From the IMG/VR virus record IMGVR_UViG_3300035158_000183, positions 64,001 to 128,000 of that record: a DNA stretch of 64,000 nt, one strand, 5' to 3'. A program made the translations under genes and the position numbers. Origin of the DNA: a virus. Numbering within the stretch: position 1 is the first letter of the stretch; every line of letters starts with the position of its first letter. This document shows positions 43,735 through 59,431 of this stretch, one piece after another. Below the pieces are notes generated by a model. The model was not told where the DNA came from, did no database searches, and worked only from the letters and a program-made list of their open reading frames with translations.

Positions 43735-46700
43735 CTACAACCTCTCATGGATTCTATTAGCCAGACGTTGCGGACTCAAGGCCTCTCGGTTGTCTACTGT
43801 TCTAATCCGGGTCCGACCGCCTAAGTCTCCAGCTTGTCTCATGAAATTCTGGCCCATCTGGTTCGCATCAGGTGTAGGTATTCTAATACTAGCACGAGAT
43901 GCGGATCTCATTCCACTCATGTCGTACACCTTAGGCGACTGCATTATCCTTGCTGTTGGAGGACTCATACCCTGTCCGGCTGCAGGACCAATATAGTCGT
44001 CCCCCAGGTTCCTGCCACCAGCTGCTCCCTCTTTCGGTGCCGACAGCGAACCAGATACTGATGGGGCTGCTAGCATTACGCCGGCCGCCAGACTAGCCCC
44101 TATCATCAGTGGGGCTCTGGCATGGCGCAAAGCCCCGAAGACAGCTGAAGTTCTAGTCTTAGCCATACGCAAGGCCCTGGTGGCATTTTCGGTGAGGCTC
44201 GGCTGCCCGTAAGCTTGTCGCTGCATGACTGCTTGTGCCACATCGAGGGAACCCGTACGACGCTTGTAATACATGTGTATTAAGGTATTTAAGTCATCTG
44301 GCACGCGGCCTTTGGCCAACTGTGCTTCCTTGACAGCAACGTCTACATCTGCACCAACTGCACGTACACCACTTATGATGTCTTCCGCAGCCTGTCTGGG
44401 GCTGAATTTCAGTGTTCTAGCACCCTCCCGACCGGTCACAGGATTAGTGATGCTACCAGATACTACACGATCTTCTTCGCCCATTATTCTCTTCAGCACA
44501 CTCTCCATCCCACTTGCATCTTGTTGCTGTATAGCATGGGCAATATCTTGATACATCTGACTCTGGTAGGCTCCGTGCTTACCACCAATAGCGGCTTCTT
44601 CTAGGTGCCAGAACAATTCAGCCATTGGACGATACTTCTCTGGAGCTGCGTACTGTAGGCCCAGTTTGGCTTTCTGTAAAGCTATATTAACCTGCGGGGT
44701 GGCTATTTTGGCTGTTGTGAGGTTCGCAGCTCCCTGCATCATAGCCTCACGTCTTGTCATTTCAGCGATACCCTTAACCCCTCCAAGCTTTGCTGCCTGG
44801 CTCTTGATCAGATCTTTCATAGCATAATGATTGAATAAATAGCTGGTATATCCTTCAGCAATTTCACTATCCATCTTGCGGGTTAGTCTGTTAAAGGTGT
44901 CTCTGTCTGATATAGCAGCTATAGAAAACGCATCTTTATCAAAATCACCTTTCATACCTACCATGGGAGATATATCTACTTGGCGTTGTACGCCACCAAT
45001 AGTCAATGACCCCTCTTGGTATGGTGAGGCTATTAGCTCGTCTGCTAGATTCCGGTCTACCTGAAACCGCGCGAATTGGAAACTCTCTGGTCCGGTGAGA
45101 GGGTGGCGCCAGACACCCGCAACCACAGCCTGATTCTTCTTTAGCAACATTTCTTTCTGGAACTTCAATAGCTCTCGCTGGTCATCCGTCTTGGCATTCT
45201 CCAGCAACTCATCCATCATTCTCTGGGCGGTGCGTGGGGAGACACGGAAAGCTCCAGCAGCTTGGGCTGTCTGTTCCGCAGTTTGTCGGACACCTGTCAG
45301 ATACCTGGTTCCCAACAGCTTGCCTTTAGCAATGGTTGCCTGGCGCTCTGTGGCAGCTACAACCTTGCTCCGTAATGAGGCAGCTGCGGCCTCAATTTCT
45401 TCTGTAGCCGCCCCTCTAGCTAGCTGATAGCGTAAATTTTGTAGTTCCTGCATAACATCCGTATCAATCATACGGCCGCCCTGAGCACGGAACTGCTGCA
45501 TAAGCTCTGGGGCTTCCTCAAAACCTGGCACATATAGCCGCTTGGCGCCCCCTAAAGCTTCTATATCCTGGCCTAACGGGACATACCTTCCTTGTGCTCT
45601 CCGCAAGTCTTCTTGGGTCATCTGTGCCAGTGTTTTCTCAGCAGTAGGTATATCCCCAGTCCATCGTTCGACAAGGCCTTCTTCACCCAGCACAGTGCCC
45701 ATCATACGATTAGCTGCTACTAAGTCAGTTTTGCCATAGGCTCGAGTACCCAGCTCTGCTGCCAATGCTTGGCCCTCCGCACCCTTCATGGCTAACAAGC
45801 GCATGCCAGCTTGCTCAATTGTAGCCATGCCACCTGCACCACCTTCAGCTGCTAGATCACCCAGACGACCCTTCATAAGCCCCATCACACCAGTGGAGTC
45901 TGCCACTGCCTGACCAATGCCGAGGCTATCTGCTACACCCTGATCCATCAGACCGAAAGTGAGGCCCATCTCTTCAGCAGTAAACCCAAAACGCTTGGCT
46001 GTTCTTGTCATACGCCGCTGCAGATCGAATACAGCACGGTCAGCAGTTGCTGCGTTCAGGCTACTGACTCCCATGATACGAGCTGGATCCTCTAAAAAGC
46101 TTCGGGCCACAGCCTCGCTTCCAGCCAGTGTGCCGGCATCTATCTTGCCAGCGGTTATGAGAGACATAGCCTCCATCTGCTGAGTCAGCTGGGCCATTAG
46201 GTTACGTTGGACCAGCTTGCCAGACCACATAGCCTGCACGGCCTGTCCGCCTATCTCTGTAGGTGCGCCGGCTACCCCGAGCATGCCAGCTAATTCTTTC
46301 TGCGTTTGAGCCCTACCCATGAACTTAATATCTTCACTGAAAAATTTCCACCACTTATCTCGACCTATGCGGTGCCGTTCGCGTACGTACACCGTAGCGG
46401 CATGATCGTCCGTAAGTTCGGCTGCAATAACTTCAGCAGCTTCCCCGCCTGCTTGAGCCTCTGCCCATAGCGGTGCGCCAGTGTGGCGCTCAACTCCTAT
46501 AAACCCTTCTTGTCCTATAGGAGTAGCGAATTCTCGCACTTCTCCGATGCGAGCACCCTTAAGCTTAGCCAGTATCTCTTCATTCACCCTGAGGCCTTCT
46601 CGTAGGTTTATCTTCTTTGCTACAACACGCTCATACTCCATCATATCGGCTGCTTGCTCTGCGATAAGTCCCTCTTCCAGGAACATTCTCTTGTTCAGTT

Positions 46701-48228
46701 CCTCAGCGAGAAAGTTTCCTTCGACCATTCCTCTCTGTAGGGCCTGCTTCTCGTTAGCAGTCTTGGCATAGAACGTTACTAGCTGAGGAGCAGTATAAGC
46801 CTCGGCTGCCGTAGCCGCATGTCCACCGTGTACCATTCTCTGATAGGCTGGGCCCTGAATCTTGCGTTCTAACCGGCTATAGTATTCGCCAAAAGTACCA
46901 GCGAATGGTGTGGCCTTAGCCTTAGCTTCCGCCGTGACACCCCACTCTCCCCTAATAAACTGGAAAGGTTGTTGTTCAGTACCCACTAAACGGCCTAGTG
47001 GGCCATATAGCTCTTCGGCAGGTGTCATACGCTCGTGCACGCCTGCCATAAATACACCTCTGGCTACGGGATCCGGACCGCCAACAGGCCACAACTGCCG
47101 TCCGCCTGCTGCAGCTTCCTCCACCATCTTTCCGCGTAATTCTTCAGTCATTTTGCCTGCATACACTGCTTGCTGGCCCAACATCCGTGCTCTAGCCCTG
47201 CCTCCAGAAGGCAGCACTGCTTCAGGCAAGGACCAAACTGCCATTGCTCTGTGTGATGCGTCCCGGTCATGAAGAGCTTCTATGATTCGATGATTTATCT
47301 CAATTACTGTGTTCTTAACACCTGTAGTGGTCTTCTGTCTGGATATGGCGTTGGCCAGAAGATCTACGTACTCATCAGCATAGTTGCGTATAGCTCCTGT
47401 CTCACCATAGGCACGCCGGGTTCTATATCTGGCTGTGAGTCGCTGTCCGCCATAGGCCATCCCTGCACCCTCTAGCGGAATATTTATAGCTTCTCTTCCG
47501 ATAGCCGCTCTTAGTACAGGAACTTCAGCAAACTTACCGCCACCTAGTGCTTCCCGGACCATCTCCACACCACGCCAGTCTATCTCCCCGCCAGCTTTGC
47601 GCATAGCTTCATCCAGCCTCTCCTGTATGGCCACGGCTTTGGGAAAGTCTTGAATAGGTTTTACTGGTCTGTCAATGGTCGTGCCCACAAACTCGCCCGG
47701 TGATATGGCTGCCTCCGCTCTGGCCGCCCATGGAGTGCGTCCGCCTAGAGTGGGATCTGCTGTTAGAGACCGCAGGCGCCCAGCAAAGACATCAGCATCA
47801 CCCAGCAAATCCTGAATCTCAGCAGCAGCTTGCCCATAAGCCTTCTTGTATGTAGACTGGCCCATGATATTTTGGAAAGCTGTGTAAGCTTCCTCTTCAC
47901 TATAACGGCCACCTGCCATAATAGCTTCATAGGCGGCAGCGGCTATATCATGCTGCAGCACCTTGCCGCCTGGGCCAATCTTGGATAGCTCGTGAATAGC
48001 CAGATCTGATGTGTCCACCGTGCTCTTGATGGTGCGTTGCAGGTTGAACCCACCCATACCAGGTACTCTTGCCGCTACTTCGCCAGCAATATCTCTGGGC
48101 ATTGTAGTGAAAAGACCCCTGAGAGCGGGATGGGCCCGGTACAAACCTACGCCAGCACCTCCCAGCAGAGCTGCACCTGCAGTAAACCCCCAGAGTGGTG
48201 AACGTTCTTGATAATTGTTATCTGGCAT
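43735..48228 (-). CDS. Putative single-chain two-barrel (beta+beta' DPBB) RNA polymerase, likely virion-associated
   Basis: 1497 aa. Beta-like motifs in order: FLEEGLI, VYVRERHRIGRDKWWKFFSEDIK, GQAVQAMWSGKLVQRNLMAQ, GGMATIEQAGMRLLAMKGA. Then beta'-like motifs: GKLLGTRY, VSPRTAQRM, WRHP, SPMVGMKGDFDKD (44932-44949). Hydrophobic segments at both ends. Confidence 0.72.
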   Translation of the reverse strand: MPDNNYQERSPLWGFTAGAALLGGAGVGLYRAHPALRGLFTTMPRDIAGEVAARVPGMGGFNLQRTIKSTVDTSDLAIHELSKIGPGGKVLQHDIAAAAYEAIMAGGRYSEEEAYTAFQNIMGQSTYKKAYGQAAAEIQDLLGDADVFAGRLRSLTADPTLGGRTPWAARAEAAISPGEFVGTTIDRPVKPIQDFPKAVAIQERLDEAMRKAGGEIDWRGVEMVREALGGGKFAEVPVLRAAIGREAINIPLEGAGMAYGGQRLTARYRTRRAYGETGAIRNYADEYVDLLANAISRQKTTTGVKNTVIEINHRIIEALHDRDASHRAMAVWSLPEAVLPSGGRARARMLGQQAVYAGKMTEELRGKMVEEAAAGGRQLWPVGGPDPVARGVFMAGVHERMTPAEELYGPLGRLVGTEQQPFQFIRGEWGVTAEAKAKATPFAGTFGEYYSRLERKIQGPAYQRMVHGGHAATAAEAYTAPQLVTFYAKTANEKQALQRGMVEGNFLAEELNKRMFLEEGLIAEQAADMMEYERVVAKKINLREGLRVNEEILAKLKGARIGEVREFATPIGQEGFIGVERHTGAPLWAEAQAGGEAAEVIAAELTDDHAATVYVRERHRIGRDKWWKFFSEDIKFMGRAQTQKELAGMLGVAGAPTEIGGQAVQAMWSGKLVQRNLMAQLTQQMEAMSLITAGKIDAGTLAGSEAVARSFLEDPARIMGVSSLNAATADRAVFDLQRRMTRTAKRFGFTAEEMGLTFGLMDQGVADSLGIGQAVADSTGVMGLMKGRLGDLAAEGGAGGMATIEQAGMRLLAMKGAEGQALAAELGTRAYGKTDLVAANRMMGTVLGEEGLVERWTGDIPTAEKTLAQMTQEDLRRAQGRYVPLGQDIEALGGAKRLYVPGFEEAPELMQQFRAQGGRMIDTDVMQELQNLRYQLARGAATEEIEAAAASLRSKVVAATERQATIAKGKLLGTRYLTGVRQTAEQTAQAAGAFRVSPRTAQRMMDELLENAKTDDQRELLKFQKEMLLKKNQAVVAGVWRHPLTGPESFQFARFQVDRNLADELIASPYQEGSLTIGGVQRQVDISPMVGMKGDFDKDAFSIAAISDRDTFNRLTRKMDSEIAEGYTSYLFNHYAMKDLIKSQAAKLGGVKGIAEMTRREAMMQGAANLTTAKIATPQVNIALQKAKLGLQYAAPEKYRPMAELFWHLEEAAIGGKHGAYQSQMYQDIAHAIQQQDASGMESVLKRIMGEEDRVVSGSITNPVTGREGARTLKFSPRQAAEDIISGVRAVGADVDVAVKEAQLAKGRVPDDLNTLIHMYYKRRTGSLDVAQAVMQRQAYGQPSLTENATRALRMAKTRTSAVFGALRHARAPLMIGASLAAGVMLAAPSVSGSLSAPKEGAAGGRNLGDDYIGPAAGQGMSPPTARIMQSPKVYDMSGMRSASRASIRIPTPDANQMGQNFMRQAGDLGGRTRIRTVDNREALSPQRLANRIHERL

Positions 48229-51200
48229 TACCTAACTCCCATCCTCTTGTGGGTTTCTCGCACTAATTCATCTCTAGAGTCAACGATTTCAATATCATAC
48301 TCATCCGGTCCTTTAGTAGCCAGACCACACCGCATCACCCTGCTGCCACTACCTCCATGGACCTTGGCTAGTGTTTCAGCATTCAGCTTGTGTATCATAA
48401 CATCTTCTAGCTCAGCACGGGCTTGCATATCTCGTATAAGGTCTTCATTAATATACGGTTTTCTAGCTAGGGCTCGCTTCCGAGCACCCCAAAGATCGAA
48501 CTCATGATGGTCGAGTCCGGCCATCTGCACATACTGAAGCTTAACATCCTCCATATCAACTGATGGACTATTATGATAGATTCCAATTGGAGAACAATAC
48601 ATGTGCTGGTCTTCAACTTCAAAATCGAGCACCGTGCCTTCGTATTGGGATCTTTCAATGGTCTCTACTCGATAAGCTATAAAGTTTTCACCTACTATAG
48701 CTGAAAGAGAAGAGCTAAGTGACTCTACTGCATATTGGGCTTTACCATTTCTCTTCTTTGGCCCATGCAAACTAGCAGGAATACCTTGTGCCTCATATAG
48801 CCGTTTGGCCATATAGCATAATTGTCTATTAGCAAGAATAAGTCTCCCCCGCTCATCTTTAGAAGCATCCCCTGTATTAAGGCCATCTAATAAAGCTGCT
48901 TGGCTCTTCTGAGTAATATTCTCTAACCAAGAAGGAGAATATTTTTGATCACAATATCTACCTACCCAATGATTAATAAGCCAACCGAAAATACTATTTG
49001 CTACTACTAAATATGCGCTTTCACTCTTAGGCTTCTTCTTAAATCTGATGATGCTATCTAATCCAAATTTATCTTTAATGATTTTTTGAGCTAATTCTAG
49101 AATTGGGACTTCATCTATATGCGCTGTAAACTGTACTCCTCTCATTCTGTCTCCAACAGCCCATGTGTTCCCTCCTGCTAAGTAATAGCCAATTAACCAA
49201 CAAGTAGCTTCATCTAATTTGATAAATCTATTGATTGGTTTAATTCTTCCTGTCTTCGGACGTAAAGTATCATCAAGTATCAGAGTATTGTTTGGAAAAC
49301 AATTAAGCTTACCAATATCTATTACTGGATCTTCATCAGTATGTTTTAGTAAAGGAATAGGCAAGTACGTATTTGTTGTAAGTTTACCTATAGGCATCCA
49401 TTTAGCAGAATAAGATTCATAATGCTTTGTAGTACAGAAATTACATTTCCACATTGTTGTTGCATGCGTGCATACAGATTCAGGCTTTAAATTGTATTTG
49501 CATCGTTCAGTCTGAATCCCAAGCACAATATGATTCTCTGTTGCTGCCATACAATAAACACTGTTGTGATGAGTTTTAACAATTATAATATCTTCATTTG
49601 TCTGTCTCTCAAAAACTTGTTTCACTTGGTTTTCTCCTTGCAAGGTAGTTAAAGACTGATCTAATTTTACGTCACTTGCATGGAGAATTCTACCATCTGA
49701 TGTTAAGATATCTTGTTTCGGAGGAACACACCACCCTAGCCAGTCTGCGCCTGGCAAGGAGTGGGTTTTGAAGTATTCCTTAGCCTTAAGTTCGCGTATC
49801 CATTCATCAAATGGGATCTTTCCATCTGTCTCGGCTCGCCACTGCTCTTCCATCTCCGGTGTGGCCCCGAAGCCTTCGGTCTTGCGCATAAGAGCAGTCG
49901 TAATTAGTGTCTGCTCATCTTCCTTGGTGGCTATACCCGCCTGCTCCTTAGCTCTAGCAGCTCCTGCTTCCTGTTGTAACCACTTGGACATATACAGCCG
50001 TTGTTCATTCTCAGGTATCAGGGACAGTATCTCCTCGCGCTCTTCTGGTGATCTGGCACCTGTGAAAGCAGCAAAGAAGTCACGCTCTCTGCGCGGCAAG
50101 GCCCTCATAGCAGCCACTGGTGACCCGAAGACGTCCAGCCCGAACATGGTCCGCTGCTGGAGTTCCTGTTCCTCCCTCACATCTGACCACCTATTATTGT
50201 GGCGCGCAATACGTTCTGCACGCTCTGCCTTCACCCAATCCAGCATATCGAAATATTCATTAATGTCACGACGTTGGCGAATTTGTTCAGGAATTCTGTT
50301 GAAACCTATAGCGTGTAGTGCCATGTCGGCTGCTGGCTGTAGAAAGTTCTCCACAGGACGATTCCAAAATGCTGCCTGGGTGCCAATAGCCTCTGAAGCT
50401 ATGTACTCCTCAATGGCTGATCGTTGTCTGATAAGCTTGGATGCCGGAGACATAGGCGTTAGATACTCCATAGGGGTCTCAATACCATGCAAGATAGTCT
50501 CGCTCATGCGTCCAGCCAAACGCTCAGCAGGAGTAAATCTTAGCTGCTCGAATTCATCGCGTAGCTCCTTGGCCTCGGCATACTTCTGCTCCGCCAGGAC
50601 TTGCCCGTAGTCCTGGTCGCCCATCATGGCTACAGCCTTCATGCGGCTGCCGCGCTTGGTCACATCATAGCGGCGGGACTCCATCTGAGGAGCCTTGATA
50701 GTAATCTTCTGCCCCTCAAAGTGCTCAGTGGCGAAGTCCATTGCCTTCTGCATGTTGGTGATGGCGCCCACGCCCTGCAGCTCGATAACCATGTCGCCGA
50801 ATTCTGCTGCCTTGATACGACGTGGATCTAAGACCTCTGTGACGGTGATATCCCTGGTGCCTAGTAGCTCTGGTCTGAAGCGATACTCAGTTATCTTGCG
50901 GCGCTGCTTCCTGGACTTGACCTGTTCCTCAACAGTTCTGACTAGCTGCTTATCTTGATCCGATAGCCTACCAAAGTTTCGCTTAGCCTTCTGTAGCGTC
51001 CACTTATATTCGTCTGACCACATAGCCACATCGCCCAGGATTTTAAGGCGGTGGACGAGTGGATACTCCTCTGGGTGGACCCCAGCTACCTCAGGATGCA
51101 GAGCCTCGTACCCAGGACCCGGCAGTCTGATTTCAGCTTCCTTGATCTTCTGGAATGGATTGCCATACTTCAGATCTAAGAAGTAGTCTTCGGGCATCCA

Positions 51201-54200
51201 GGACGGCATGGTATTCTTTAGAGGGTTATAGGTCTCAAGATAGCTTCTGGTGCGCGGAATAAAACGTCTCACTGGCTCCGAGTTGTGCAGAAGTAAATAA
51301 TCCCCAACAAAACAATGAGACTCTTCAACTTCTATATCAAAAACTTTAACTCCCGTGGCAGGCTCGGCTTTTACATTTCTAACTGAGTAATATAAAAACC
51401 CATCCTGAGTAAACTGCCTACCATTAGAGTGTTCGAAACTTTCTTCCCAATCATTGTCGAGAATAATGCGGCAATATCTATCATGTTGGTCTTTGCTAAA
51501 CTTAAGATAGGATCTAAGAGTTGGCTTGCGTTGTTCGCCCTGCGGATATTGATTGTTAGGTTTGGGAATTTCCAAGTAGTCATCTGTCACTGTGGCAAAT
51601 ACACCAAGTCTTGCCAGGACAATCCAAAGATCTCGCACTAGCCGATTAGACTTACTAGTAAACCCTCCTGAGTATTTCTCTTTATTACTCCACCCATCGC
51701 CACCAATTAAACCAGCAATTAGCTTAGGCAATAAAGAGATGGGCAGATCAATAAGCCACGCCAATTTCTTAGTGCCGGCATCGGTGCCGAATTGCTTAAG
51801 CCATCGTGCTAAAGGAATATTGTGTAGCCTTAAAGCACAACTTCCTTGTTCGGGTTTCGTAGATATGTTATAGCTAAATCCAAATCTGGCTGTGTATATT
51901 TCGCCCAAAATATGAGCTATATCCAGCTCTTCTAAAGCAAGAGTAAAAGTAATATCTCCAGCCTGTGGGTCAGCACTACCCTCAGCAATCCACCACCCCA
52001 CAAACCAAGCAAGATCACGACCGAATACAACCTTACGTGGAGTTCTTTTGGGAGAGTGCTTTTTCCGGTATGAATTTAATGCTTCCTTCGCATATTGATC
52101 GGGAACGATTTCTCTTAAATCTTTCCGAGACATAAGGGGATTATTCTCTAGTGCTTCTATAGCTTTGGCAAAATGTTTAGTGGCCCTAGAATAGATATAG
52201 TCGTCTGTCACCGTTGCTGTAGAAGCAGCGTAGGGACCAAAATCTATAGATATATCTTCGGAAGTAATACCACCGGGCAGCGGCATTACCACAAAATCAT
52301 TTGGCTCAATAGCATCAGCTCGAACCCATTGCCACGCAATCTCTGTGTCACACAATCCACAAACACTGCAATGTTTCTTAGGGCTATGTGGGGTGCATGG
52401 TCTGGCATGACTATCTCTACAGGGAATACGTTTATAAACAGCAACAGGGTGATTCCCCGTAACTCTTACCGTCTTATTACCAACCCTGGTATTGATAGTA
52501 ATCATCTGTTCGTCGGAGCCGCAGATCCTTTCAAAAACATTAAGTACTTGCTTTGTCTTCATACGGTGATCATAAACAGCATCACCTACTTGAATATCCT
52601 CGATGTTCTTCAGGCCATCCGGAGTAAAAACCTTCTCTCCGGCAGGTAAGCATGCACCTAGCGCACCACCCACATTGAGATGGCTCCATAGCCAGTACTC
52701 AGATCCGGTCTCCTTGCCCATGACGCCTAATGTTTGTAGGTTCTGGAAGAACTCCTCCCTACCCGTCATGGCATGCTCAATAGCTCCCTCAGCAAAACCG
52801 ACAAGACCTACAGCCTCACGTCTGCGGTACATAAGCTCGTTGAACAACTGGCTACCTTCTTCGGGTACTACCGGCGCTCCAGGACGCAAGCCCCCAAGCT
52901 CATACGCTGGCTCGGTTTCCTTGCGGACATCCGGTCGATGTACATACTCTCCCTCATCTAGCATCCATTCCTCAGGACGTATTAGCTTGCGAGGCTTGAG
53001 AGCTTTGCCCACTGTTGCCGCAACAAGAGGACCGAAAAATGGTACATCTTTACCGTAAGTGCCTGCAAGCGGGGCCGGCCGCTCATACTGATATTTTCTT
53101 TCGTAGTGGTACTTCCACTCGTCTGACCCGAACAGGGCCTTTAATGGATGGAGCCATGGGTCGTGTTCCCACTTCTCTTCTTCAGTACCATACATGCCCT
53201 TCTGGAATGCTCTGGTCCGCAACCTCTCCATGAAGTGAGGGCGGTAGTATTCTATGCGGCCACCCTCGTAAGGAGTAGAATTGTGCACCAAGAATGTACC
53301 CGCCTGGAATAGATGATCCGGGTGATCTACTTCGAAGTCATAGACAATATCATCATAATCTTCTGTTTCTATCGCGCAAATAACAGAGTAAAGTTTAGAA
53401 TTACAAACTTTATAGAAATATGGAATCCTACCTGGAGTCCACTTGATCCTATGCCTCCCCCTATAATCATTCTTCTCAAACTTACAAAGATAAGGATATT
53501 CTCCTAAGTTTAACAATATAGAGAATATTGCATCAAGAAGCCCTCGTCTACAAGAAGAGATAACACAGGTTCTTTGATCTAGATGTCCATCTCCACGCCG
53601 ATAACCCTCAACCAATTGTTCTTTAAAAGCTTTTGGTGCAGACATAAATACTTGTGGAAATATTTTGTCTTGTTGGCGCTCGCTATTATAAAACAGCTCA
53701 AAGAACATTCTGGCAAGCAAAGAACTGCAGATCCTTACGACCCAACAGCCTTCGTTTGTTTTCTTCTTGCCTTTCTTAAACCTTACTGTTGGTGTAATGC
53801 CAAATTCTTTCTCAGATATAGAGACAACATCATCAACTATCCATCGTTCTGATTTAGCGTGAACAGTTTCTATCATGTGGGGAATATCATTCTTATAAGA
53901 AATATTGCCTTCTGCTAAGAAGTAACCGAATAGACGGCCTAGTTCTGGTGTTAATGTTACAACTCTAGGGATTGAAGCCCCCCTAGATCTTTGAACCTTG
54001 CCACTATACCAATTCTTCTGTGCGGGGAGAAGAATATCTTCACAGATTAAGAAAAGACCAGTCTTTATCAAATCTTCAGAAATAAGCTCAGTTGATGTTT
54101 CCTTTAGCTGTGGGATAGGTATCTCTACTCTGTCGTTTACTCGAAGCCCTTTCGCTTCTACTTCAACAATTTCTTCTCCTCTAAGAACCGGAACCTTATG

Positions 54201-56060
54201 ATTCCCTGTTAGCTTGGTCTCTGTAATCCAACTAGCTCTTGTTTTGAATTTGATAATATTACCAGAAAACTTTCTTGTAAATATATTGACGACCTTAGCC
54301 TCTTCGCCATCTCTGCCTATTAAGACATCACCAATACGAACTTCATGGGCTTCCTTAAATGTTCCGGCATAACACATTGGAATCATTGAGGAATTCGCCA
54401 AGCACCTCCCGAACTCCCACCACCTACCCTTCCTGATGGGCACTTCCTTCTCACCAGAGTAAATTGCCTCCAGCTCCTCGGAAGTCTCAGTAGTACCCAG
54501 CAAGTTGAGTCCAGGTATAGCCGCCATTAGATTGCCAGAAAGCAGTCCCATGCCAGTGCTAAGGGCGCCCCAGGCTGCCACTCCACCTAGAAACCCTAGA
54601 GCCATTGGGTGCCTAGCCTTAGCAAGCAATCTACCCCCGGGTAGTTTCTTGACAGCTTTACCCAGCTTAGACTCCCATACGGCGTCAGCTATCTTATCAA
54701 CATGTTCTTTACGCAGATCTTCAGTAATATCTGCGAAGGCACGCTCGGGGCCTGCTGCGTGGCGTTGCCGAACTGCTGCACCCAATAAACCACCATAGCC
54801 GGCCAGGCCCCCCGCCAGCATACCTACGCCACCGAACCCTACGGCAGTCTTAAGGGATACCAGCCCAGGTGTCACAGCTTCCTGTTCTCGCAATGATTCT
54901 GATAGACCCAAAGCTTCTGATGCTCTTGCCCGTGCAAGGTTCAAATCAGTAAACATAGAAGCGACGCCGTAGAATAGACCTTCATCAAATCTAGGGGCTA
55001 GGGCCGTATAGAGACCGGTTGCCGCCCCAATAGCCAGACCAGCAGGTCTAAACATTTGTCCTGGTCGCTTGAACAGAAAGGCGCCAGCTGCGGCACCACC
55101 GGCAGTACCAAGGGCTGGTGCCCAAGCACTACCTTCCGCCCTCAAATAATCGTAATATTCTAGACCCTTATACGCAGCGGCCAGTCCTAAACCTTTCATC
55201 ATATACCGGCCGGCCATCTGCATAGCAGAGCCAGGCTGGACCTTCATGCTGCTGACCACAGGTATACGATTTAGGATAGGAAACACCTCGAACGGCTTCG
55301 AGAGTAGCATGTTAAGACGGCCCGCCGTAGTAGCCGCCTTGGCACGCATCAGCTTCCCAAGTATTTCACCCTTAGCCACTCGGCGCTGCATCTTCTCACT
55401 GAGCTGTATATCTTTACCAAAAATCCTAATCTTCTCGCGGAACTTGGCTCCCAATATCAGCTTGCGACGTCTCTCCGAAGGAGCCATCTCATCCAGCCAC
55501 TCCTTGTAGTCTATCGGGAGATCTAGCATCTCATATTCGCTTCTTAATAGAGCCTCATTGAGTGACTGATATTCTCCTAGTTTGGTCTTGCTAAGCCGTG
55601 CGTAGTAGTCGGCAATGGCAGAACCCTTCTGAGTGCCTGCAGTGATCTGCAGCCCCATCCCGATAGCTTTACTCTCGCGCGTTACATCACCAAATATCGC
55701 ACCGGTACGCTCCATCGTCAGACCGCCACCTGTACCAAAGATATTTCGGAGATATCCTCCGTACTGGCCTGCAGCCTTCAGCTGGGCCTCTGGCAGATCT
55801 ATTCTAGACCAGGTTTCTAGGGGCGATAGGAACTCAGAGATACGGAAGGTTCTGAGTATAGCTGCAGGGAAGGCTGTCTCGGCTGTTCTAATTCCCTGTA
55901 GGTAAACATCCCACAGTCTCCCGCCACCGTAAGGTATAAATCCAGACGCCATTATACCTGCACTAGCGAATCCCAGTTTAGCTAGCGGGGATAGTGTCTC
56001 GCTTGGTTGTGGGGGCTGTGGCCCGAAGGCTGTTATCGGATCAGCTGGCAATAATTTCAC
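48228..56060 (-). CDS. Tape-measure-position / ejection protein interrupted by three inteins (1391 aa after splicing)
   Basis: 2610 aa directly after the tail chaperones. Several Gly/Ala-rich hydrophobic helices in the first ~520 aa, three C...HN|S inteins, and a degenerate SNase-like domain at about 50570-50852. Confidence 0.75.
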   Translation of the reverse strand: MKLLPADPITAFGPQPPQPSETLSPLAKLGFASAGIMASGFIPYGGGRLWDVYLQGIRTAETAFPAAILRTFRISEFLSPLETWSRIDLPEAQLKAAGQYGGYLRNIFGTGGGLTMERTGAIFGDVTRESKAIGMGLQITAGTQKGSAIADYYARLSKTKLGEYQSLNEALLRSEYEMLDLPIDYKEWLDEMAPSERRRKLILGAKFREKIRIFGKDIQLSEKMQRRVAKGEILGKLMRAKAATTAGRLNMLLSKPFEVFPILNRIPVVSSMKVQPGSAMQMAGRYMMKGLGLAAAYKGLEYYDYLRAEGSAWAPALGTAGGAAAGAFLFKRPGQMFRPAGLAIGAATGLYTALAPRFDEGLFYGVASMFTDLNLARARASEALGLSESLREQEAVTPGLVSLKTAVGFGGVGMLAGGLAGYGGLLGAAVRQRHAAGPERAFADITEDLRKEHVDKIADAVWESKLGKAVKKLPGGRLLAKARHPMALGFLGGVAAWGALSTGMGLLSGNLMAAIPGLNLLGTTETSEELEAIYSGEKEVPIRKGRWWEFGRCLANSSMIPMCYAGTFKEAHEVRIGDVLIGRDGEEAKVVNIFTRKFSGNIIKFKTRASWITETKLTGNHKVPVLRGEEIVEVEAKGLRVNDRVEIPIPQLKETSTELISEDLIKTGLFLICEDILLPAQKNWYSGKVQRSRGASIPRVVTLTPELGRLFGYFLAEGNISYKNDIPHMIETVHAKSERWIVDDVVSISEKEFGITPTVRFKKGKKKTNEGCWVVRICSSLLARMFFELFYNSERQQDKIFPQVFMSAPKAFKEQLVEGYRRGDGHLDQRTCVISSCRRGLLDAIFSILLNLGEYPYLCKFEKNDYRGRHRIKWTPGRIPYFYKVCNSKLYSVICAIETEDYDDIVYDFEVDHPDHLFQAGTFLVHNSTPYEGGRIEYYRPHFMERLRTRAFQKGMYGTEEEKWEHDPWLHPLKALFGSDEWKYHYERKYQYERPAPLAGTYGKDVPFFGPLVAATVGKALKPRKLIRPEEWMLDEGEYVHRPDVRKETEPAYELGGLRPGAPVVPEEGSQLFNELMYRRREAVGLVGFAEGAIEHAMTGREEFFQNLQTLGVMGKETGSEYWLWSHLNVGGALGACLPAGEKVFTPDGLKNIEDIQVGDAVYDHRMKTKQVLNVFERICGSDEQMITINTRVGNKTVRVTGNHPVAVYKRIPCRDSHARPCTPHSPKKHCSVCGLCDTEIAWQWVRADAIEPNDFVVMPLPGGITSEDISIDFGPYAASTATVTDDYIYSRATKHFAKAIEALENNPLMSRKDLREIVPDQYAKEALNSYRKKHSPKRTPRKVVFGRDLAWFVGWWIAEGSADPQAGDITFTLALEELDIAHILGEIYTARFGFSYNISTKPEQGSCALRLHNIPLARWLKQFGTDAGTKKLAWLIDLPISLLPKLIAGLIGGDGWSNKEKYSGGFTSKSNRLVRDLWIVLARLGVFATVTDDYLEIPKPNNQYPQGEQRKPTLRSYLKFSKDQHDRYCRIILDNDWEESFEHSNGRQFTQDGFLYYSVRNVKAEPATGVKVFDIEVEESHCFVGDYLLLHNSEPVRRFIPRTRSYLETYNPLKNTMPSWMPEDYFLDLKYGNPFQKIKEAEIRLPGPGYEALHPEVAGVHPEEYPLVHRLKILGDVAMWSDEYKWTLQKAKRNFGRLSDQDKQLVRTVEEQVKSRKQRRKITEYRFRPELLGTRDITVTEVLDPRRIKAAEFGDMVIELQGVGAITNMQKAMDFATEHFEGQKITIKAPQMESRRYDVTKRGSRMKAVAMMGDQDYGQVLAEQKYAEAKELRDEFEQLRFTPAERLAGRMSETILHGIETPMEYLTPMSPASKLIRQRSAIEEYIASEAIGTQAAFWNRPVENFLQPAADMALHAIGFNRIPEQIRQRRDINEYFDMLDWVKAERAERIARHNNRWSDVREEQELQQRTMFGLDVFGSPVAAMRALPRRERDFFAAFTGARSPEEREEILSLIPENEQRLYMSKWLQQEAGAARAKEQAGIATKEDEQTLITTALMRKTEGFGATPEMEEQWRAETDGKIPFDEWIRELKAKEYFKTHSLPGADWLGWCVPPKQDILTSDGRILHASDVKLDQSLTTLQGENQVKQVFERQTNEDIIIVKTHHNSVYCMAATENHIVLGIQTERCKYNLKPESVCTHATTMWKCNFCTTKHYESYSAKWMPIGKLTTNTYLPIPLLKHTDEDPVIDIGKLNCFPNNTLILDDTLRPKTGRIKPINRFIKLDEATCWLIGYYLAGGNTWAVGDRMRGVQFTAHIDEVPILELAQKIIKDKFGLDSIIRFKKKPKSESAYLVVANSIFGWLINHWVGRYCDQKYSPSWLENITQKSQAALLDGLNTGDASKDERGRLILANRQLCYMAKRLYEAQGIPASLHGPKKRNGKAQYAVESLSSSLSAIVGENFIAYRVETIERSQYEGTVLDFEVEDQHMYCSPIGIYHNSPSVDMEDVKLQYVQMAGLDHHEFDLWGARKRALARKPYINEDLIRDMQARAELEDVMIHKLNAETLAKVHGGSGSRVMRCGLATKGPDEYDIEIVDSRDELVRETHKRMGVR
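48570..49730 (-). mobile_element. Intein 3 with probably degenerate LAGLIDADG endonuclease (387 aa)
   Basis: Junctions DWLGW|CVPPKQDILTSDG and PIGIYHN|SPSV. Block B ATENHIV, motifs LIGYYLAGGN and LLDGLNTGDAS, block F VLDFEVED. Confidence 0.93.
51282..52652 (-). mobile_element. Intein 2 with LAGLIDADG homing endonuclease (457 aa)
   Basis: Junctions GGALGA|CLPAGEKVFTPDGLKNIEDIQVGD and DYLLLHN|SEPV. Block B VTGNHPV, LAGLIDADG motifs FVGWWIAEGS and LIAGLIGGDGW, block F VFDIEVEE. Confidence 0.95.
53280..54404 (-). mobile_element. Intein 1 with LAGLIDADG homing endonuclease (375 aa)
   Basis: Junctions WWEFGR|CLANSSMI and AGTFLVHN|STPY. Block B LTGNHKV, LAGLIDADG motifs LFGYFLAEGN and LVEGYRRGDGH, block F VYDFEVD. 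AT-richer than the exteins. Confidence 0.95.
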
Positions 56061-56773
56061 CTGCCTCGGCGATACATTTTGCGCTTAAATTCCAGCTCTT
56101 GCTGTCTGGCACGCTGGATAGCTTCTTCTCTAATCTTCTGCATACGTGCTCTACCCTCAGGATCTTCGTCGGCCGGCCTATCAAACTCTTGATATGCTTC
56201 GGTATCTTGCCTAAGCACATCTTCTACCAGATATGGCTTCTCCACCTCATCCTCAGGCTTCTGAAATGCATGTTCTTCTTCTATTATACCGCGATCTAAC
56301 AGGACTTTCTCGGCTTGGATGAAGTTATAGACTAGCTGTTGATAGTTGAGGCTGTCCAGAGATTCGAATGTATATCCAGCAAATACAATGCAGATTACAC
56401 GCTTCATGTAATCGGCAGTAACATTCAGCTGTTTCCGGTAGGTCTTGTATAGCTCTTCGGTATAATCTTGAGAATCAACATCTACACCTGACAAAAACAG
56501 TGCAAGCCTGGCAGTGGTCTCTGAGATGCCTGCCGGTAACTGATTGAAATTCTTCTCAGTTTGCCACTCATTCTCGACTATCTGCTCGAAGATACTATCA
56601 TATATAGCACTTTTCAGGCTAACCTTGGGGGCCATATCCAGAAGCAAGGCATATTGGCTGGCCTGCTTTATAGATGGCAGACGGAAGATAACCTCTACAC
56701 CCTCTACTTCGAAGGCATACAGGTCTTCGGATTTCTTCTGGATTGCCTCCAGGGCCCGCGTGAGACCATCCAT
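56057..56773 (-). CDS. Tail assembly chaperone-like protein 2
   Basis: 238 aa. VIFRLPS...LPAGISETTARLALFLSG is paralogous to the upstream gene. Lies between the tube genes and the tape-measure-position gene. Confidence 0.6.
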   Translation of the reverse strand: MDGLTRALEAIQKKSEDLYAFEVEGVEVIFRLPSIKQASQYALLLDMAPKVSLKSAIYDSIFEQIVENEWQTEKNFNQLPAGISETTARLALFLSGVDVDSQDYTEELYKTYRKQLNVTADYMKRVICIVFAGYTFESLDSLNYQQLVYNFIQAEKVLLDRGIIEEEHAFQKPEDEVEKPYLVEDVLRQDTEAYQEFDRPADEDPEGRARMQKIREEAIQRARQQELEFKRKMYRRGR

Positions 56774-56776
56774 CGG

Positions 56777-57517
56777 CTACATCTTGATAGTCATCTGGGC
56801 GACGAACCCTGGCTCCAGGAATAGACTCTGGAGACGGACCTGCTGGACAACCATCCCCATAGCACCAGCGGGTAGTGCCGCTCGCTGTACAGGATCCATC
56901 CCAGGCCACAGGACACACTTATCAAAGATCATTTCTTCGACCTGATGCTCCTGCATCTCGTTGAATCGCGGGTTTGCGTTGATCTGAATCCACTCCTGGC
57001 GCTTCAGATAACGGTAAATAAACACATGATTCTCGATGTTTAGCAGGAATACGTCCCCATGCATACGCTTCCACTCCATTATTGCCTGTGGACCTGGAGC
57101 ATTGGGATTGATTTGCTTCAGCCTCTCACAGATAGCCTTGACTCTCTCCACAGGGTCCTCTGGGAAGTCCTCAGGCGGCTCCTGGGGAGATGTAGTCGCT
57201 GGTGCGACCTCTGAAGCCTCCGGCATCTGTGGGACGGCTGTAGCGGTCTCTGGGGCCGCTGGGGGAACCTCAGGGACTGCTGCAGGCGGAGCGTTATTAG
57301 CTTCCGCATCAGCTACCTGCTCGGCCGTGAGCATACCGGCACCGCCGCCGAATCCAGCTGCACTCATAGCAGCCTTGTCCGCACCCATGTCAAAGGGCTT
57401 GTCGTCGCCATAGACCTCACTGAAAGACTTCTTGCCAGCCTTCATCATCTTCTCGGCCTTACGGGCGAGTTCCTGCTCTCGTGGCCCTACCGCCACTTTG
57501 CGTTTCTGTTTAGTCAT
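56777..57517 (-). CDS. Tail assembly chaperone-like protein 1
   Basis: 246 aa. Disordered Pro/Ala/Glu N-terminal half, then IMEWKRMHGDVF...FIYRYLKRQEW...KCVLWP...LPAG. Confidence 0.65.
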   Translation of the reverse strand: MTKQKRKVAVGPREQELARKAEKMMKAGKKSFSEVYGDDKPFDMGADKAAMSAAGFGGGAGMLTAEQVADAEANNAPPAAVPEVPPAAPETATAVPQMPEASEVAPATTSPQEPPEDFPEDPVERVKAICERLKQINPNAPGPQAIMEWKRMHGDVFLLNIENHVFIYRYLKRQEWIQINANPRFNEMQEHQVEEMIFDKCVLWPGMDPVQRAALPAGAMGMVVQQVRLQSLFLEPGFVAQMTIKM

Positions 57518-57532
57518 GTTGTAACTCCTTGG

Positions 57533-58399
57533 TTAAACGATATTTCTTGCTATGAATTGGAACTCTTCTAGGATGGGCTCCCCTGAGACTTCTATTGACT
57601 GAGATTGCCCCGTGAAGGAGACATCCATGAGTTTCTTGACTGTATGATTGGCAGACGGCTTGCTGGTGTCGCCGTACACGATCCAAATGTCTATAGGTGG
57701 GTACTGGTCTGCTCTGCGGTGCGAAAGAGCATCCTCAGTGGCCAACAGCTGGTCCTCAGGGAGGTTTTTACTAAAGAGCCGCTCCCTGAGCAGGGGGTTG
57801 GCAGTATCACTGCCATACCATATGGCATCCTCAAATACTTCCGCCCACTGCTCGAACCTATCGTCTGGTAAGTTACCGAGATCTCTAAAGAATTGATTGT
57901 ATGCCTGCTGGGCATTCTTCTTATCCTTAGCAGCAGCCCATTCCATGGACTGCTCCACATTGGCCTTCATAGTCTTATGTTTCTCAGCTTCACGAGCAGC
58001 TGAAAGGAATGTGCCAGGTGTGTCTCCTACCCTATATCCTTTAGTCAGACGGCCTTCCTTATTCAGGGTGTAGCGGGGAGTAGTCCACTCTCCACCAAGT
58101 TTGAGGTTCTGGTAGCGTATCATCGGATAGCTGAGATATCCGGATTCCTTGAAGGCCAACATGATAGCTCCTTGTACCACAACCTTGCCTTCTCCTACAA
58201 ATGAATAGTACTGGCTGGCGTATCCCCATACAGGTGTCTTCTGCTGAACCGCATTAAAGCTTACAGCGACAGCTGAGTCTATGACTACATCTCCGAACAT
58301 CACATTGATCTGTGACCCAGAGAAGTAATCGTACTCATACGTTGTCTCCCCTACGAATGGAGGAGTAATAAGCTCGCCTTTATGGTTCCTGAGTGCCAT
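57533..58399 (-). CDS. Tail tube-fold paralogue (tube initiator-like)
   Basis: YFSGSQINV...QQKTPVWGYAS...GKVVVQGAI...ADQYPPIDI...FIARNI shares motifs with the tube protein. Confidence 0.7.
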   Translation of the reverse strand: MALRNHKGELITPPFVGETTYEYDYFSGSQINVMFGDVVIDSAVAVSFNAVQQKTPVWGYASQYYSFVGEGKVVVQGAIMLAFKESGYLSYPMIRYQNLKLGGEWTTPRYTLNKEGRLTKGYRVGDTPGTFLSAAREAEKHKTMKANVEQSMEWAAAKDKKNAQQAYNQFFRDLGNLPDDRFEQWAEVFEDAIWYGSDTANPLLRERLFSKNLPEDQLLATEDALSHRRADQYPPIDIWIVYGDTSKPSANHTVKKLMDVSFTGQSQSIEVSGEPILEEFQFIARNIV

Positions 58400-59355
58400 T
58401 AAATAAATGGATTCCTACGTCTGATATGAGCTGAAAACATCTGCTCCTTCATAAGATCAGATGCTGTCTTATTCCAGCTCTTGCTTACCCCATGACCGTC
58501 GATGGCTCGGGTTTCCACAAGCCTCATGGGGTCTAGGTCTCTTGCCACATACTGTACCACGTTCTCTGAGTAGATGTCTTCTATAGAGAAGGTCTGGCCT
58601 TCCTGGAAGAACTCTACCCCCCACAGGCCCATATGAGAAATAGCACCATACTCATTAGCGAAAACCAGGCTGATATCAATGGGAGGCATCTGGTCGGCCA
58701 GCATGGTGGTGTAAAGCTGATTGTCGAAGTCACTAGAGCCAGTACTAAACTGTCTAAGTTTAAGCCGCATAATGTCTGCGAATACGTGTTCATGGAAGAT
58801 AGTAAATACCATACTACCTGAGATAGTACGAGGCCCTCTGGTATATGCACGCGGATACACAGCCCCCAAGGGTCGGACTGGAGCTTTATCCCTAAAACTG
58901 CCTATAGAGATAGTCTGAATGTCTCCCAGTGTCTTGGATGTAGGTAAATTCCGGATGTTTTGCAGGATTGCATCCAGTTCACTCAATTCACTATTTCTTA
59001 CCTGCTGAGCTTGTATATAGTCGGCAAGCTGTTTGGTGGTCAAGATCTCCCGATTGTTTTCATACCAAATTTCTGCCTTTATGGCCTCTTTCTCTATCGC
59101 CCACATCTCGTCCAGCAACAGCTTGTCGTCTATAGGGTCATGGGGATAGTGAACTACTACCTTGATGTCAGCGCCACTATATGTCCCATAGAATTTGGCG
59201 TAATCTGATACGACAGCAGGATTCTTGCTATTCTGGGCCTTCTTGGCCATAGGGCTATCCGGATGTGGCGGCGGGGGTGGCTTATACACATAGTGTCGTG
59301 CAAGGGCGTCCTCGCTGGGCATGGGGCGCTTGGCGACTATACTAGAATAAACCAT
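58399..59355 (-). CDS. Tail tube-fold paralogue (tube initiator-like)
   Basis: YSGADIK...IQTISI...RDKAPVRPLG...TRGPRTISGSMVF...ADQMPPIDISLVFANEYG is a clear paralogue of the tube protein. Confidence 0.75.
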   Translation of the reverse strand: MVYSSIVAKRPMPSEDALARHYVYKPPPPPHPDSPMAKKAQNSKNPAVVSDYAKFYGTYSGADIKVVVHYPHDPIDDKLLLDEMWAIEKEAIKAEIWYENNREILTTKQLADYIQAQQVRNSELSELDAILQNIRNLPTSKTLGDIQTISIGSFRDKAPVRPLGAVYPRAYTRGPRTISGSMVFTIFHEHVFADIMRLKLRQFSTGSSDFDNQLYTTMLADQMPPIDISLVFANEYGAISHMGLWGVEFFQEGQTFSIEDIYSENVVQYVARDLDPMRLVETRAIDGHGVSKSWNKTASDLMKEQMFSAHIRRRNPFI

Positions 59356-59380
59356 ATTTTAGACCTTCAGGAGATGGGAG

Positions 59381-59410
59381 AACCGGGTCAGGCTTAGTCC
59401 TGACCCGGTT
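59381..59410 (-). terminator. Perfect 12-bp hairpin downstream of the tube gene (terminator or RNA-stabilising stem)
   Basis: AACCGGGTCAGG-cttagt-CCTGACCCGGTT, 21 nt after the tube stop codon. Followed on the minus strand by CTCCCATCTCC, with no long U tract. Confidence 0.6.
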
Positions 59411-59431
59411 TATGGGCAGATTGAACACAGA

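What the first reader, a model, noticed from the sequence alone, without database searches (positions are those of the whole stretch)
48570..54404. Three full-length inteins in a virion structural (tape-measure-position) protein
Seen: inteins of 375, 457 and 387 aa (1219 of 2610 aa, about 47% of the gene), each with Cys1, a terminal His-Asn, a +1 Ser and LAGLIDADG motifs. All are visibly AT-richer than the exteins. They share the motif blocks but otherwise look dissimilar by eye, which suggests independent invasions. Established: inteins mostly target conserved sites of replication/nucleotide enzymes and terminases. Inference: the insertion sites (GRWWEFGR|STPY, GGALGA|SEP, WLGW|SPSVD) mark highly conserved functional motifs, which is unexpected for a plain tape measure. 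Three splicing events would also be required before tail assembly, which could act as a conditional switch.
Basis: partly seen in the sequence, partly recalled or inferred. Interest (0 to 1): 0.75.

Follow-up and report, generated by a model that had tools for sequence, protein, structure and literature searches.

The report
Three inteins in phage tail protein
One giant tail-module gene of an uncultured large phage is interrupted by three separate self-splicing mobile protein elements (inteins), and its protein family, of unknown function, proves to be an unusually dense intein target across related phages.

Summary
ORF 48228-56060 (-) encodes a 2610-aa precursor with three in-frame inteins of 375, 457 and 387 aa. 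Each has Cys1, a TxxH block B, a terminal His-Asn, a +1 Ser and two LAGLIDADG motifs. They coincide with the only three low-GC stretches in the 64-kb window.

Removing them gives a 1391-aa protein. It matches intein-free alleles of 1386-1393 aa residue for residue across all three junctions. One such allele lies in identical gene order.

The host protein is the homologue of Bacillus phage 0305phi8-36 gp145, annotated in that record as a virion protein found by mass spectrometry. It sits between the tail chaperonins and the gene called tape measure there. Its C-terminal two thirds are predicted to be compact, not ruler-like, and the core domain matches no solved fold.

The three inteins are 20-27% identical to each other, against 36-77% for inteins at the same site in other phages. 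Intein and extein identities disagree, which indicates horizontal homing.

Across relatives I mapped at least 15 insertion sites, and 45 of 120 representatives carry one to three inteins. The "splicing switch" idea remains untested. First-reader notes of this scan describe the same family on two other genomes. The inteins are canonical; the host family and the hot spot appear new.

The parts
48228..56060 (-). Precursor ORF, 2610 aa (about 295 kDa). After splicing it is 1391 aa (about 156 kDa). Its start overlaps the upstream chaperonin gene by 4 nt, and its stop overlaps the start of the downstream 1497-aa gene by 1 nt.
54405..56060 (-). Extein 1 (aa 1-552). Basic (pI 9.8), rich in Gly, Ala and Leu, with three uncharged glycine-zipper-like stretches (aa 310-330, 405-430, 485-522). 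It ends in the conserved KGRWWEFGR motif.
53280..54404 (-). Intein 1 (375 aa) at family site a (P0002 551|552). It has Cys1, TGNH block B (54192-54209), LAGLIDADG motifs FLAEGN (53901-53933) and RRGDGH (53583-53615), and ends FLVHN|S.
52653..53279 (-). Extein 2 (209 aa). This is the first part of the conserved core domain, which has no solved fold relative.
51282..52652 (-). Intein 2 (457 aa) at site d (760|761). It has Cys1, TGNH (52443-52460), a Cys-rich insert just after block B (52350-52421), LAGLIDADG motifs WIAEGS (51972-52004) and IGGDGW (51690-51722), and ends LLLHN|S.
49731..51281 (-). Extein 3 (517 aa). It holds the rest of the core domain, an SNase/OB-like domain (about 50529-50867) and the helical C-terminal domain ending in DWLGW.
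48570..49730 (-). Intein 3 (387 aa) at site i (1277|1278). It has Cys1, TENH (49524-49541) and a Cys4 insert (49434-49502). The first LAGLIDADG motif reads YLAGGN (49164-49196): the catalytic Glu is Gly here (codon GGA), whereas all 10 same-site inteins keep Glu or Asp. The second motif is NTGDAS (48861-48893). It ends GIYHN|S.
48231..48569 (-). Extein 4 (113 aa), the C-terminal tail that begins SPSVDMEDVK.
56057..57517 (-). Context: two genes (238 and 246 aa) in the position of the two-gene tail chaperonin gp143/gp144 of 0305phi8-36.
   Evidence: PMC2147016
43735..48228 (-). Context: the translationally coupled downstream 1497-aa gene. It sits in the position of 0305phi8-36 gp146 ('hypothetical tape measure'). 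An earlier AI follow-up reads it as a two-barrel virion RNA polymerase.

Best explanation
The gene encodes the gp145-type virion protein of a 0305phi8-36-like contractile-tailed phage of about 174 kb. It is translated as a 295-kDa precursor carrying three unrelated class-1 inteins.

Splicing. Each intein should excise itself by the standard route: a Cys1 N-S acyl shift, transesterification to the +1 Ser, cyclisation of the terminal Asn, then an O-N shift. This leaves a seamless 1391-aa mature protein and three free LAGLIDADG homing endonucleases.

Homing. In mixed infections these endonucleases cut the empty site in intein-less alleles of related phages, and the intein is copied in by repair. 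The gene is a favoured target because it is essential and its core is very strongly conserved. Across the family this has produced at least 15 insertion sites, and about 37% of sampled representatives are invaded.

What is shown: the anatomy, the precise empty-site alleles, same-site intein lineages, intein/extein incongruence, and homology and shared gene order with a protein annotated as a mass-spectrometry-verified virion protein.

What is inferred: that splicing and homing are active. In this copy intein 3's endonuclease has probably lost one of its two catalytic sites.

Also inferred, with lower confidence (about 0.4): the mature protein is a tail-lumen or ejected 'pilot' protein. On this reading its N-terminal glycine-zipper helices act on the membrane and its globular core enters the cell with the DNA. 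It would not be the length ruler.
For: - Boundaries, catalytic residues and composition.
- Pfam intein and LAGLIDADG matches.
- 179 homologues, including many intein-free alleles of 1386-1393 aa. The spliced junctions match the empty-site allele L014 at 19-20 of 20 aa and 45-48 of 60 nt. An intein-free allele lies in identical gene order on a 198-kb contig.
- Sites mapped.
- Same-site inteins are 36-77% identical, against 20-27% between the three. Examples of incongruence: P0027 has intein 77% and extein 56%; P0011 has intein 47% and extein 64%.
- Intein 3's detectable relatives are nearly all at this same site of this family.
- Mini-inteins occur at sites a and d, and intein 3 carries a Glu-to-Gly change, so the stages of the usual intein life cycle are all present.
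- hhalign to 0305phi8-36 gp145: probability 100%, E 4.6e-74. Shared gene order with 0305phi8-36, ME3, WH1 and MTATph1.
- Conservation percentiles of the sites.
Against: - No experiment shows that splicing or endonuclease activity occurs.
- Intein 3 scores below Pfam's curated cut-off, and its first LAGLIDADG motif lacks the acidic residue.
- At site i the +1 Ser replaces the His found in 33 of 43 intein-free alleles, so the spliced product is not identical to the usual allele.
- The role proposed for the mature protein rests only on gene position, composition and predicted structure. No known fold, Pfam, NCBIfam or PDB relative was found for the core.
Confidence: 0.85

Rival explanations
1. 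The host protein is the true tape measure (length ruler), so these are inteins in a tape measure protein, as recently listed for actinobacteriophages.
For: - It is the first gene after the tail chaperonins, the classic tape measure slot.
- Its N-terminal 520 aa are helical, rich in Gly and Ala, and carry glycine-zipper stretches typical of tape measures.
- If the downstream gene is an RNA polymerase (AI note e1-5743155), no other ruler candidate remains in the module.
- Length is nearly constant among close relatives.
Against: - Hardies et al. assign the ruler to the next gene, gp146, and say the chaperonins are 'one gene removed' from it (PMC2147016).
- The C-terminal ~870 aa fold as compact domains (pLDDT 82-87, pTM 0.77-0.84), not as an extended helix.
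- The core is far more conserved than tape measures usually are.
- No tape measure Pfam or NCBIfam match was found.
- Language-model features of the downstream protein, not this one, resemble tape measure clusters. This is weak, at score 0.78.
Confidence: 0.25
2. Splicing is conditional. The Cys-rich inserts next to block B in inteins 2 and 3 would sense zinc or redox state, so the three splicing events would gate tail assembly.
For: - A four-Cys insert directly after the TxxH block is conserved in all 11 site-i inteins and in 3 of 4 site-d inteins, including a mini-intein that has lost its endonuclease.
- From my own knowledge, redox- and zinc-modulated inteins are known.
Against: - Intein 1 and one site-d intein (P0029) lack the insert.
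- 75 of 120 family representatives have no intein at all, so no intein-based control is needed.
- Such inserts may simply be DNA-binding zinc ribbons serving the endonuclease.
- Nothing was tested experimentally.
Confidence: 0.08
3. The inteins are dead remnants, and the gene is inactivated or makes a protein that retains the inserts.
For: - Intein 3 has lost one endonuclease catalytic residue.
- Intein 3 scores weakly in Pfam.
Against: - All splicing residues (Cys1, TxxH, the block F and G His-Asn, and the +1 Ser) are intact in all three inteins and conserved across same-site inteins.
- The 7.8-kb frame is open.
- The gene is translationally coupled to both neighbours.
- The genome is estimated to be 91% complete.
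Confidence: 0.03

Closest known systems
Bacillus phage 0305phi8-36 gp145 (YP_001429636 / ABS83703), with positional homologues in Acinetobacter phage ME3 (gp035), Bacillus phages WH1, Edson and KLEB27-3, and Moorella phage MTATph1
   Same: - The conserved core is homologous (hhalign probability 100%, E 4.6e-74), including the KGRWW, RRF(I/L)P, NP..NTMP.W(L/M)P and RLPG.GY motifs.
- Gene order is the same: sheath, tube paralogues, two chaperonins, this gene, a second giant gene, then the hub.
- The GenBank record annotates gp145 as a virion protein identified by mass spectrometry.
   Different: - None of the four cultured-phage homologues scanned (0305phi8-36, ME3, WH1, MTATph1) carries an intein.
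- They are only about 28-37% identical, and several have large extra insertions (1930-2025 aa without inteins).
- Their function is also unknown.
Class-1 LAGLIDADG inteins in actinobacteriophage virion genes, including tape measure, portal and minor capsid proteins (bioRxiv 10.1101/2025.01.02.630785)
   Same: - Canonical inteins with homing endonucleases in phage structural genes.
- The same logic applies: a conserved insertion site and local dissemination by homing.
   Different: - The host family is different and unannotated.
- There are three inteins in one protein.
- The family has at least 15 sites. The survey text has no hits for 'two inteins', 'three inteins' or 'multiple inteins'.
Multi-intein, multi-site hosts such as ribonucleotide reductase and replicative enzymes (my own knowledge). 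The class II RNR of this same phage carries probably two inteins, and its RecA carries one.
   Same: - Several independent inteins sit at different conserved sites of one essential protein.
- Empty, full-length, endonuclease-degenerate and mini forms coexist in the population.
   Different: - Those hosts are nucleotide-handling enzymes, and the sites lie at known active sites.
- Here the host is a virion protein whose core has no known fold or activity.
Thermus phage P23-45 gp96, a tape measure fused to a virion RNA polymerase (PMC10770324)
   Same: - Giant tail-module proteins that combine a membrane-active or ruler part with a globular module thought to be delivered into the host.
- An earlier AI follow-up note reads the gene downstream of ours as a related two-barrel RNA polymerase.
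   Different: - I detected no homology to gp96.
- Here the two functions, if real, lie on two translationally coupled genes.
- I did not verify the RNA polymerase reading of the neighbour.

Membership tests
Intein (class 1 protein-splicing element) | An in-frame insertion that is absent from homologues, with the flanks contiguous in intein-free alleles | tested here: met
   All three junctions match the empty-site allele L014 at 19-20 of 20 aa. 75 of 120 representatives are intein-free.
Intein (class 1 protein-splicing element) | Cys or Ser at position 1, a block B TxxH, a penultimate His with terminal Asn, and Cys, Ser or Thr at +1 | tested here: met
   Cys1, then TGNH, TGNH and TENH, then HN, then +1 Ser in all three inteins. 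These are conserved in same-site inteins.
Intein (class 1 protein-splicing element) | A significant match to Hint/intein splicing-domain profiles | tested here: met
   PF14890 E-values are 8.1e-11 (above the cut-off), 2.3e-8 (1.4 bits below it) and 4.6e-5 (below it). The whole protein scores 82.4 bits over 3 stretches.
Intein (class 1 protein-splicing element) | Actual protein splicing | not testable with these tools
   This needs expression of the precursor, or mass spectrometry of junction peptides.
LAGLIDADG homing endonuclease (double-motif, intein-embedded) | Two LAGLIDADG motifs, each ending in an acidic residue followed by Gly | tested here: met
   This row covers inteins 1 and 2: LAEGN with RGDGH, and IAEGS with GGDGW. 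PF14528 E-values are 1.4e-8 and 2.8e-9.
LAGLIDADG homing endonuclease (double-motif, intein-embedded) | The same feature, in intein 3 | tested here: not met
   The first motif reads LAGGN (codon GGA), whereas all 10 same-site inteins have LAEGN or LADGH. The second motif, TGDAS, is intact. The endonuclease is probably inactive or a nickase. PF14528 is weak (E 0.0024).
Tail tape measure protein | The gene lies directly downstream of the tail assembly chaperone genes | tested here: met
   However, a second giant gene follows, and in 0305phi8-36 that gene is the one assigned as the ruler.
Tail tape measure protein | A mostly extended alpha-helical protein, and a match to tape measure profile families | tested here: not met
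   Residues equivalent to 560-1320 are predicted to form compact domains (pTM 0.77 and 0.84). No tape measure Pfam or NCBIfam match was found for this protein or its intein-free allele at E <= 0.01, nor for six other relatives in Pfam at E <= 0.1. The N-terminal 520 aa remain compatible with a short ruler segment.
Tail tape measure protein | Protein length proportional to tail length | not testable with these tools
   There is no virion image for this uncultured phage.
0305phi8-36 gp145-like virion protein family (unnamed) | Profile homology over the conserved core, and conserved gene order | tested here: met
   hhalign probability 100%. The only strong BFVD fold matches (E 1e-15 to 2e-28) include A7KUR9, which I take to be 0305phi8-36 gp145, and look like members of the same family. 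Gene order.

The most novel reading that the evidence does not exclude
The intein-dense core is about 370 aa, is confidently predicted, and has no solved fold relative. It occurs in about 1400 sequence clusters and is repeatedly joined to SNase-type domains. The most novel reading is that it is a new enzymatic or DNA-handling module of an ejected pilot protein that works with the translationally coupled downstream giant protein, which may be a virion RNA polymerase. On this reading the 15 or more intein sites would outline its active or interaction surface.
Probability: 0.3. Interest if true: 0.8.

Novelty: new member of a known kind. Interest (0 to 1): 0.6.

Why it matters
Inteins are usually described as parasites of replication, repair and packaging enzymes. 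Here a virion protein of unknown function is among the most heavily invaded families I could document. It has at least 15 insertion sites and up to three inteins per chain. About 37% of sampled representatives are invaded, and every stage of the intein life cycle is present.

This has three consequences.
- It flags a very widespread, strongly constrained domain of unknown fold in the tail module of large phages as functionally important.
- It gives a natural system, with many sites and many lineages in one gene, for studying homing and site switching among co-infecting phages.
- It supplies dozens of new Cys1/Ser+1 inteins and LAGLIDADG endonucleases whose natural target sites are known.

The finding does not change what is understood about how inteins work.

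Tried and rejected
Searches on the extein that found nothing:
- PHROGs. Its only hits lie inside intein 2.
- NCBIfam.
- Pfam on this protein at E <= 0.01 and on seven relatives at E <= 0.1. Only sub-threshold Gly-zipper and ANIS5 hits appeared.
- A PDB profile search.
- ESM Atlas, which returned only unnamed viral clusters at score 0.76.

Fold searches:
- For the 986-aa model, Foldseek against PDB and VIA-wide gave only the SNase/OB domain (Z about 10) and generic helical hairpins.
- For the isolated 373-aa core, the best VIA Z was 4.8 and Foldseek E was above 1. This does not prove that the fold is new.

Other negative or failed steps:
- tblastn of extein 1 against cultured phages found nothing, so the N-terminal part is lineage-specific.
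- Pairwise BLAST of the downstream 1497-aa protein against 0305phi8-36 gp146 and ME3 gp036 gave no significant similarity. A PDB sequence search with it found nothing either.
I used the search for related loci instead.

Ideas considered and rejected:
- A recent arrival of the inteins from a very close donor. The closest same-site inteins are only 77% identical.
- The YonO-like RNA polymerase that Iyer et al. report in 0305phi8-36 (ABS83659.1) being gp146. Its accession differs from gp146's (ABS83704.1), and by accession order it falls about 45 genes earlier.

Full report
**Observation.** The minus-strand ORF 48228..56060 is open for 2610 codons.
- aa 553-927 (window 53280-54404, 375 aa)
- aa 1137-1593 (51282-52652, 457 aa)
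- aa 2111-2497 (48570-49730, 387 aa)

Each begins with Cys. Each has a TxxH block B (TGNH, TGNH, TENH). Each ends in His-Asn and is followed by Ser. Pfam finds the intein splicing domain three times, together with LAGLIDADG_3. Intein 3 scores weakest (23.7 bits, E 4.6e-5).

Intein GC is 0.36-0.43, against 0.47-0.54 in the exteins. At third codon positions it is 0.25-0.35 against 0.41-0.57. In the whole 64-kb window, the only 1-kb stretches below 44% GC are the three that overlap the inteins.

**Empty sites.** Removing the inteins leaves 1391 aa. A search with extein 3 found 179 relatives. Many are 1386-1393 aa with no intein domain; the closest, P0002, is 73% identical over extein 3. Others run to about 1770, 2170 and 2560 aa and carry intein Pfam domains.

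The DNA of P0002's gene (locus L014) shows the three sites empty. The window's spliced junction peptides match it at 19-20 of 20 residues and 45-48 of 60 bases. A second intein-free allele (L015, on a 198-kb contig) lies in identical gene order.

**What the host protein is.** tblastn against cultured phages hits only a small group: Bacillus phages 0305phi8-36, WH1, Edson and KLEB27-3, Acinetobacter phage ME3 and Moorella phage MTATph1. In all of them the gene order is the same: sheath, tube and tube paralogues, two tail chaperonins, this gene, a second giant gene, then a giant gp27-like hub. The tube paralogues are mislabelled 'major head protein', and PHROG 9206 inherits that label.

A profile of the intein-free alleles aligns to 0305phi8-36 gp145 with hhalign probability 100% and E 4.6e-74 over the core. 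The GenBank record annotates gp145 as a virion protein identified by mass spectrometry. The own genome is a 174-kb virus record, estimated 91% complete. None of the four cultured homologues scanned (0305phi8-36, ME3, WH1, MTATph1) has an intein here.

**Is it the tape measure?**
- By position it occupies the classic slot. But Hardies et al. (PMC2147016) assign the ruler to the next gene, gp146, and note that the chaperonins are one gene removed from it.
- An AlphaFold2 model of a natural 986-aa fragment of the family, equivalent to residues 415-1390, is confident (pLDDT 81.8, pTM 0.77). It is compact rather than an extended helix.
- The 373-aa core alone gives pLDDT 87 and pTM 0.84.
- The only recognisable fold is an SNase/OB-like domain (Z about 10), at about window 50529-50867. 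The core matches nothing solved (best Z 4.8).
- No Pfam, NCBIfam, PHROG or PDB sequence relative was found for the extein.
- The N-terminal 520 aa are basic and rich in Gly and Ala, with three uncharged glycine-zipper stretches. That is the part that resembles tape measure or ejection proteins.

I therefore read the protein as a conserved tail-associated protein that is probably ejected, rather than the ruler. My confidence in that reading is only about 0.4-0.6.

An earlier AI follow-up (e1-5743155) reads the translationally coupled downstream 1497-aa gene as a two-barrel virion RNA polymerase like P23-45 gp96 (PMC10770324). I only confirmed that a GDFDKD motif exists. I also found that language-model features of that protein weakly resemble tape measure clusters (score 0.78, a lead only).

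**The inteins are independent, and each belongs to one site.** The three are 20-27% identical to each other. Inteins at the same site in other phages are 44-77% identical at site a, 36-66% at site d, and 40-77% at site i.

Intein and extein identities disagree. P0027 has intein 77% and extein 56%. P0075 has 66% and 50%. P0011 and P0014 have 47% and 62-64%. That is the signature of horizontal homing between diverged phages. Site i holds two intein lineages. A database search with intein 3 found nine relatives, all in this family and, where I mapped them, at this site, plus one distant primase intein.

**A family-wide hot spot.** I mapped insertions against P0002 in 120 representatives.
- 75 have no intein, 36 have one, 7 have two and 2 have three. 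The two with three are this window (sites a, d, i) and P0014 (sites a, f, i).
- The 56 inteins occupy ten sites: 551|552, 557|558, 744|745, 760|761, 786|787, 818|819, 842|843, 1274|1275, 1277|1278 and 1295|1296.

A phmmer search of the core against 1.84 billion representatives gave 1394 hits at E <= 1e-3 and 419 at E <= 1e-30. Mapping the best 132 new proteins added sites at 622|623, about 654, about 704, 791|792 and 803|804, plus one only partly resolved at about 710. That gives at least 15 sites. It also revealed another three-intein protein, P0123 (2643 aa).

Mini-inteins of 150-192 aa occur at sites a and d. In P0010, at site d, the alignment shows the endonuclease domain cleanly removed.

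In this window, intein 3's first LAGLIDADG motif reads LAGGN (codon GGA), whereas all ten same-site inteins keep Glu or Asp. Its endonuclease has probably lost one active site. So the family shows empty sites, full inteins, decaying endonucleases and mini-inteins, which are the stages of the usual intein life cycle.

**Are the sites 'functional motifs'?** I scored a +/-5 residue window around each junction for conservation across 43 intein-free alleles. The percentiles are:
- site a: 95th
- site d: 71st, although invariant Gly, Glu and two Arg residues flank it
- site i: 99th
- sites f, g and h: 96th to 99th

Sites a and d fall in conserved loops that the model predicts with low confidence. 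This would fit partner- or ligand-contact loops, but that is an inference.

At sites a and d, Ser or Thr at +1 is native. At site i, 33 of 43 intein-free alleles have His, so the Ser appears to come with the intein. The same holds at sites f, g, h and j.

High conservation of an essential gene is enough to explain the targeting. No catalytic signature was found. Some relatives carry bona fide Pfam SNase domains, which hints at nucleic-acid handling.

**Literature.**
- A 2025 survey lists tape measure, portal and minor capsid proteins among actinobacteriophage intein hosts (bioRxiv 10.1101/2025.01.02.630785).
- The jumbo-phage overview I checked mentions an intein only in a ribonucleotide reductase.
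- The MIJ3 paper reports one in a DNA polymerase.
- The phiCbK inteins are in TerL and RNR.

I found no report of inteins in the gp145 family. However, the search covers only open-access text.

**Verdict.** These are three canonical class-1 LAGLIDADG inteins, acquired independently, in a conserved virion protein of unknown function. The real added value is that this protein family is an intein hot spot and contains a widespread, strongly constrained core domain with no solved relative. The 'conditional switch' remains speculation. First-reader notes of this scan describe the same family on other DNA: e1-5819747 is an intein-free 1390 + 1489 aa gene pair, and e1-5893390 and e1-5893400 describe two inteins at my sites b and j.

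Noticed in passing
own genome outside the window: G000:C1:27715-32676 (L012:1716-6677) and G000:C1:34230-36323 (L005:865-2958): The same phage also carries inteins in a class II ribonucleotide reductase (1653 aa, probably two inteins, with a TSCPD domain) and in RecA (697 aa, one LAGLIDADG_2 intein). The genome therefore holds probably six inteins.
   Followed up: partly
window 43735-48228 (-): The downstream 1497-aa gene overlaps the stop codon of the intein-bearing gene by one base. It contains a GDFDKD motif. An earlier AI follow-up calls it a two-barrel virion RNA polymerase. ESM Atlas features weakly resemble tape measure clusters (score 0.78). The ME3 gene in the same position has a GGDHDQD stretch, which BLAST happened to align to this motif.
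   Followed up: partly
window 52350-52421 and 49434-49502 (-): Inteins 2 and 3 carry Cys-rich inserts (four Cys or more) directly after the block B His. The insert is conserved in all 11 site-i inteins and in 3 of 4 site-d inteins, including a mini-intein without an endonuclease. It may be a zinc ribbon; its role is unknown.
   Followed up: partly
window about 50529-50867 (-): Extein 3 contains an SNase/OB-like domain (VIA Z about 10 to staphylococcal nuclease and Tudor-SN). Several family members lack this region. Other relatives (P0174, P0243) carry bona fide Pfam SNase domains at other positions.
   Followed up: partly
window 49164-49196 (-): In intein 3's first LAGLIDADG motif the catalytic Glu is replaced by Gly (GGA, one base away from GAA). 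This change is unique among the 11 same-site inteins and is a sign that the endonuclease is starting to decay.
   Followed up: yes
window 57533-60112 (-): Three tandem paralogues (288, 318 and 226 aa) match PHROG 9206, labelled 'major head protein'. The notes in the 0305phi8-36 record call the corresponding genes tail tube and tube paralogue, so the PHROG and GenBank product label is misleading.
   Followed up: partly
relatives P0123 (2643 aa) and P0014 (2560 aa): Two other uncultured phages carry three inteins in the same gene, in different site combinations (622/818/1277 and 551/818/1277).
   Followed up: yes
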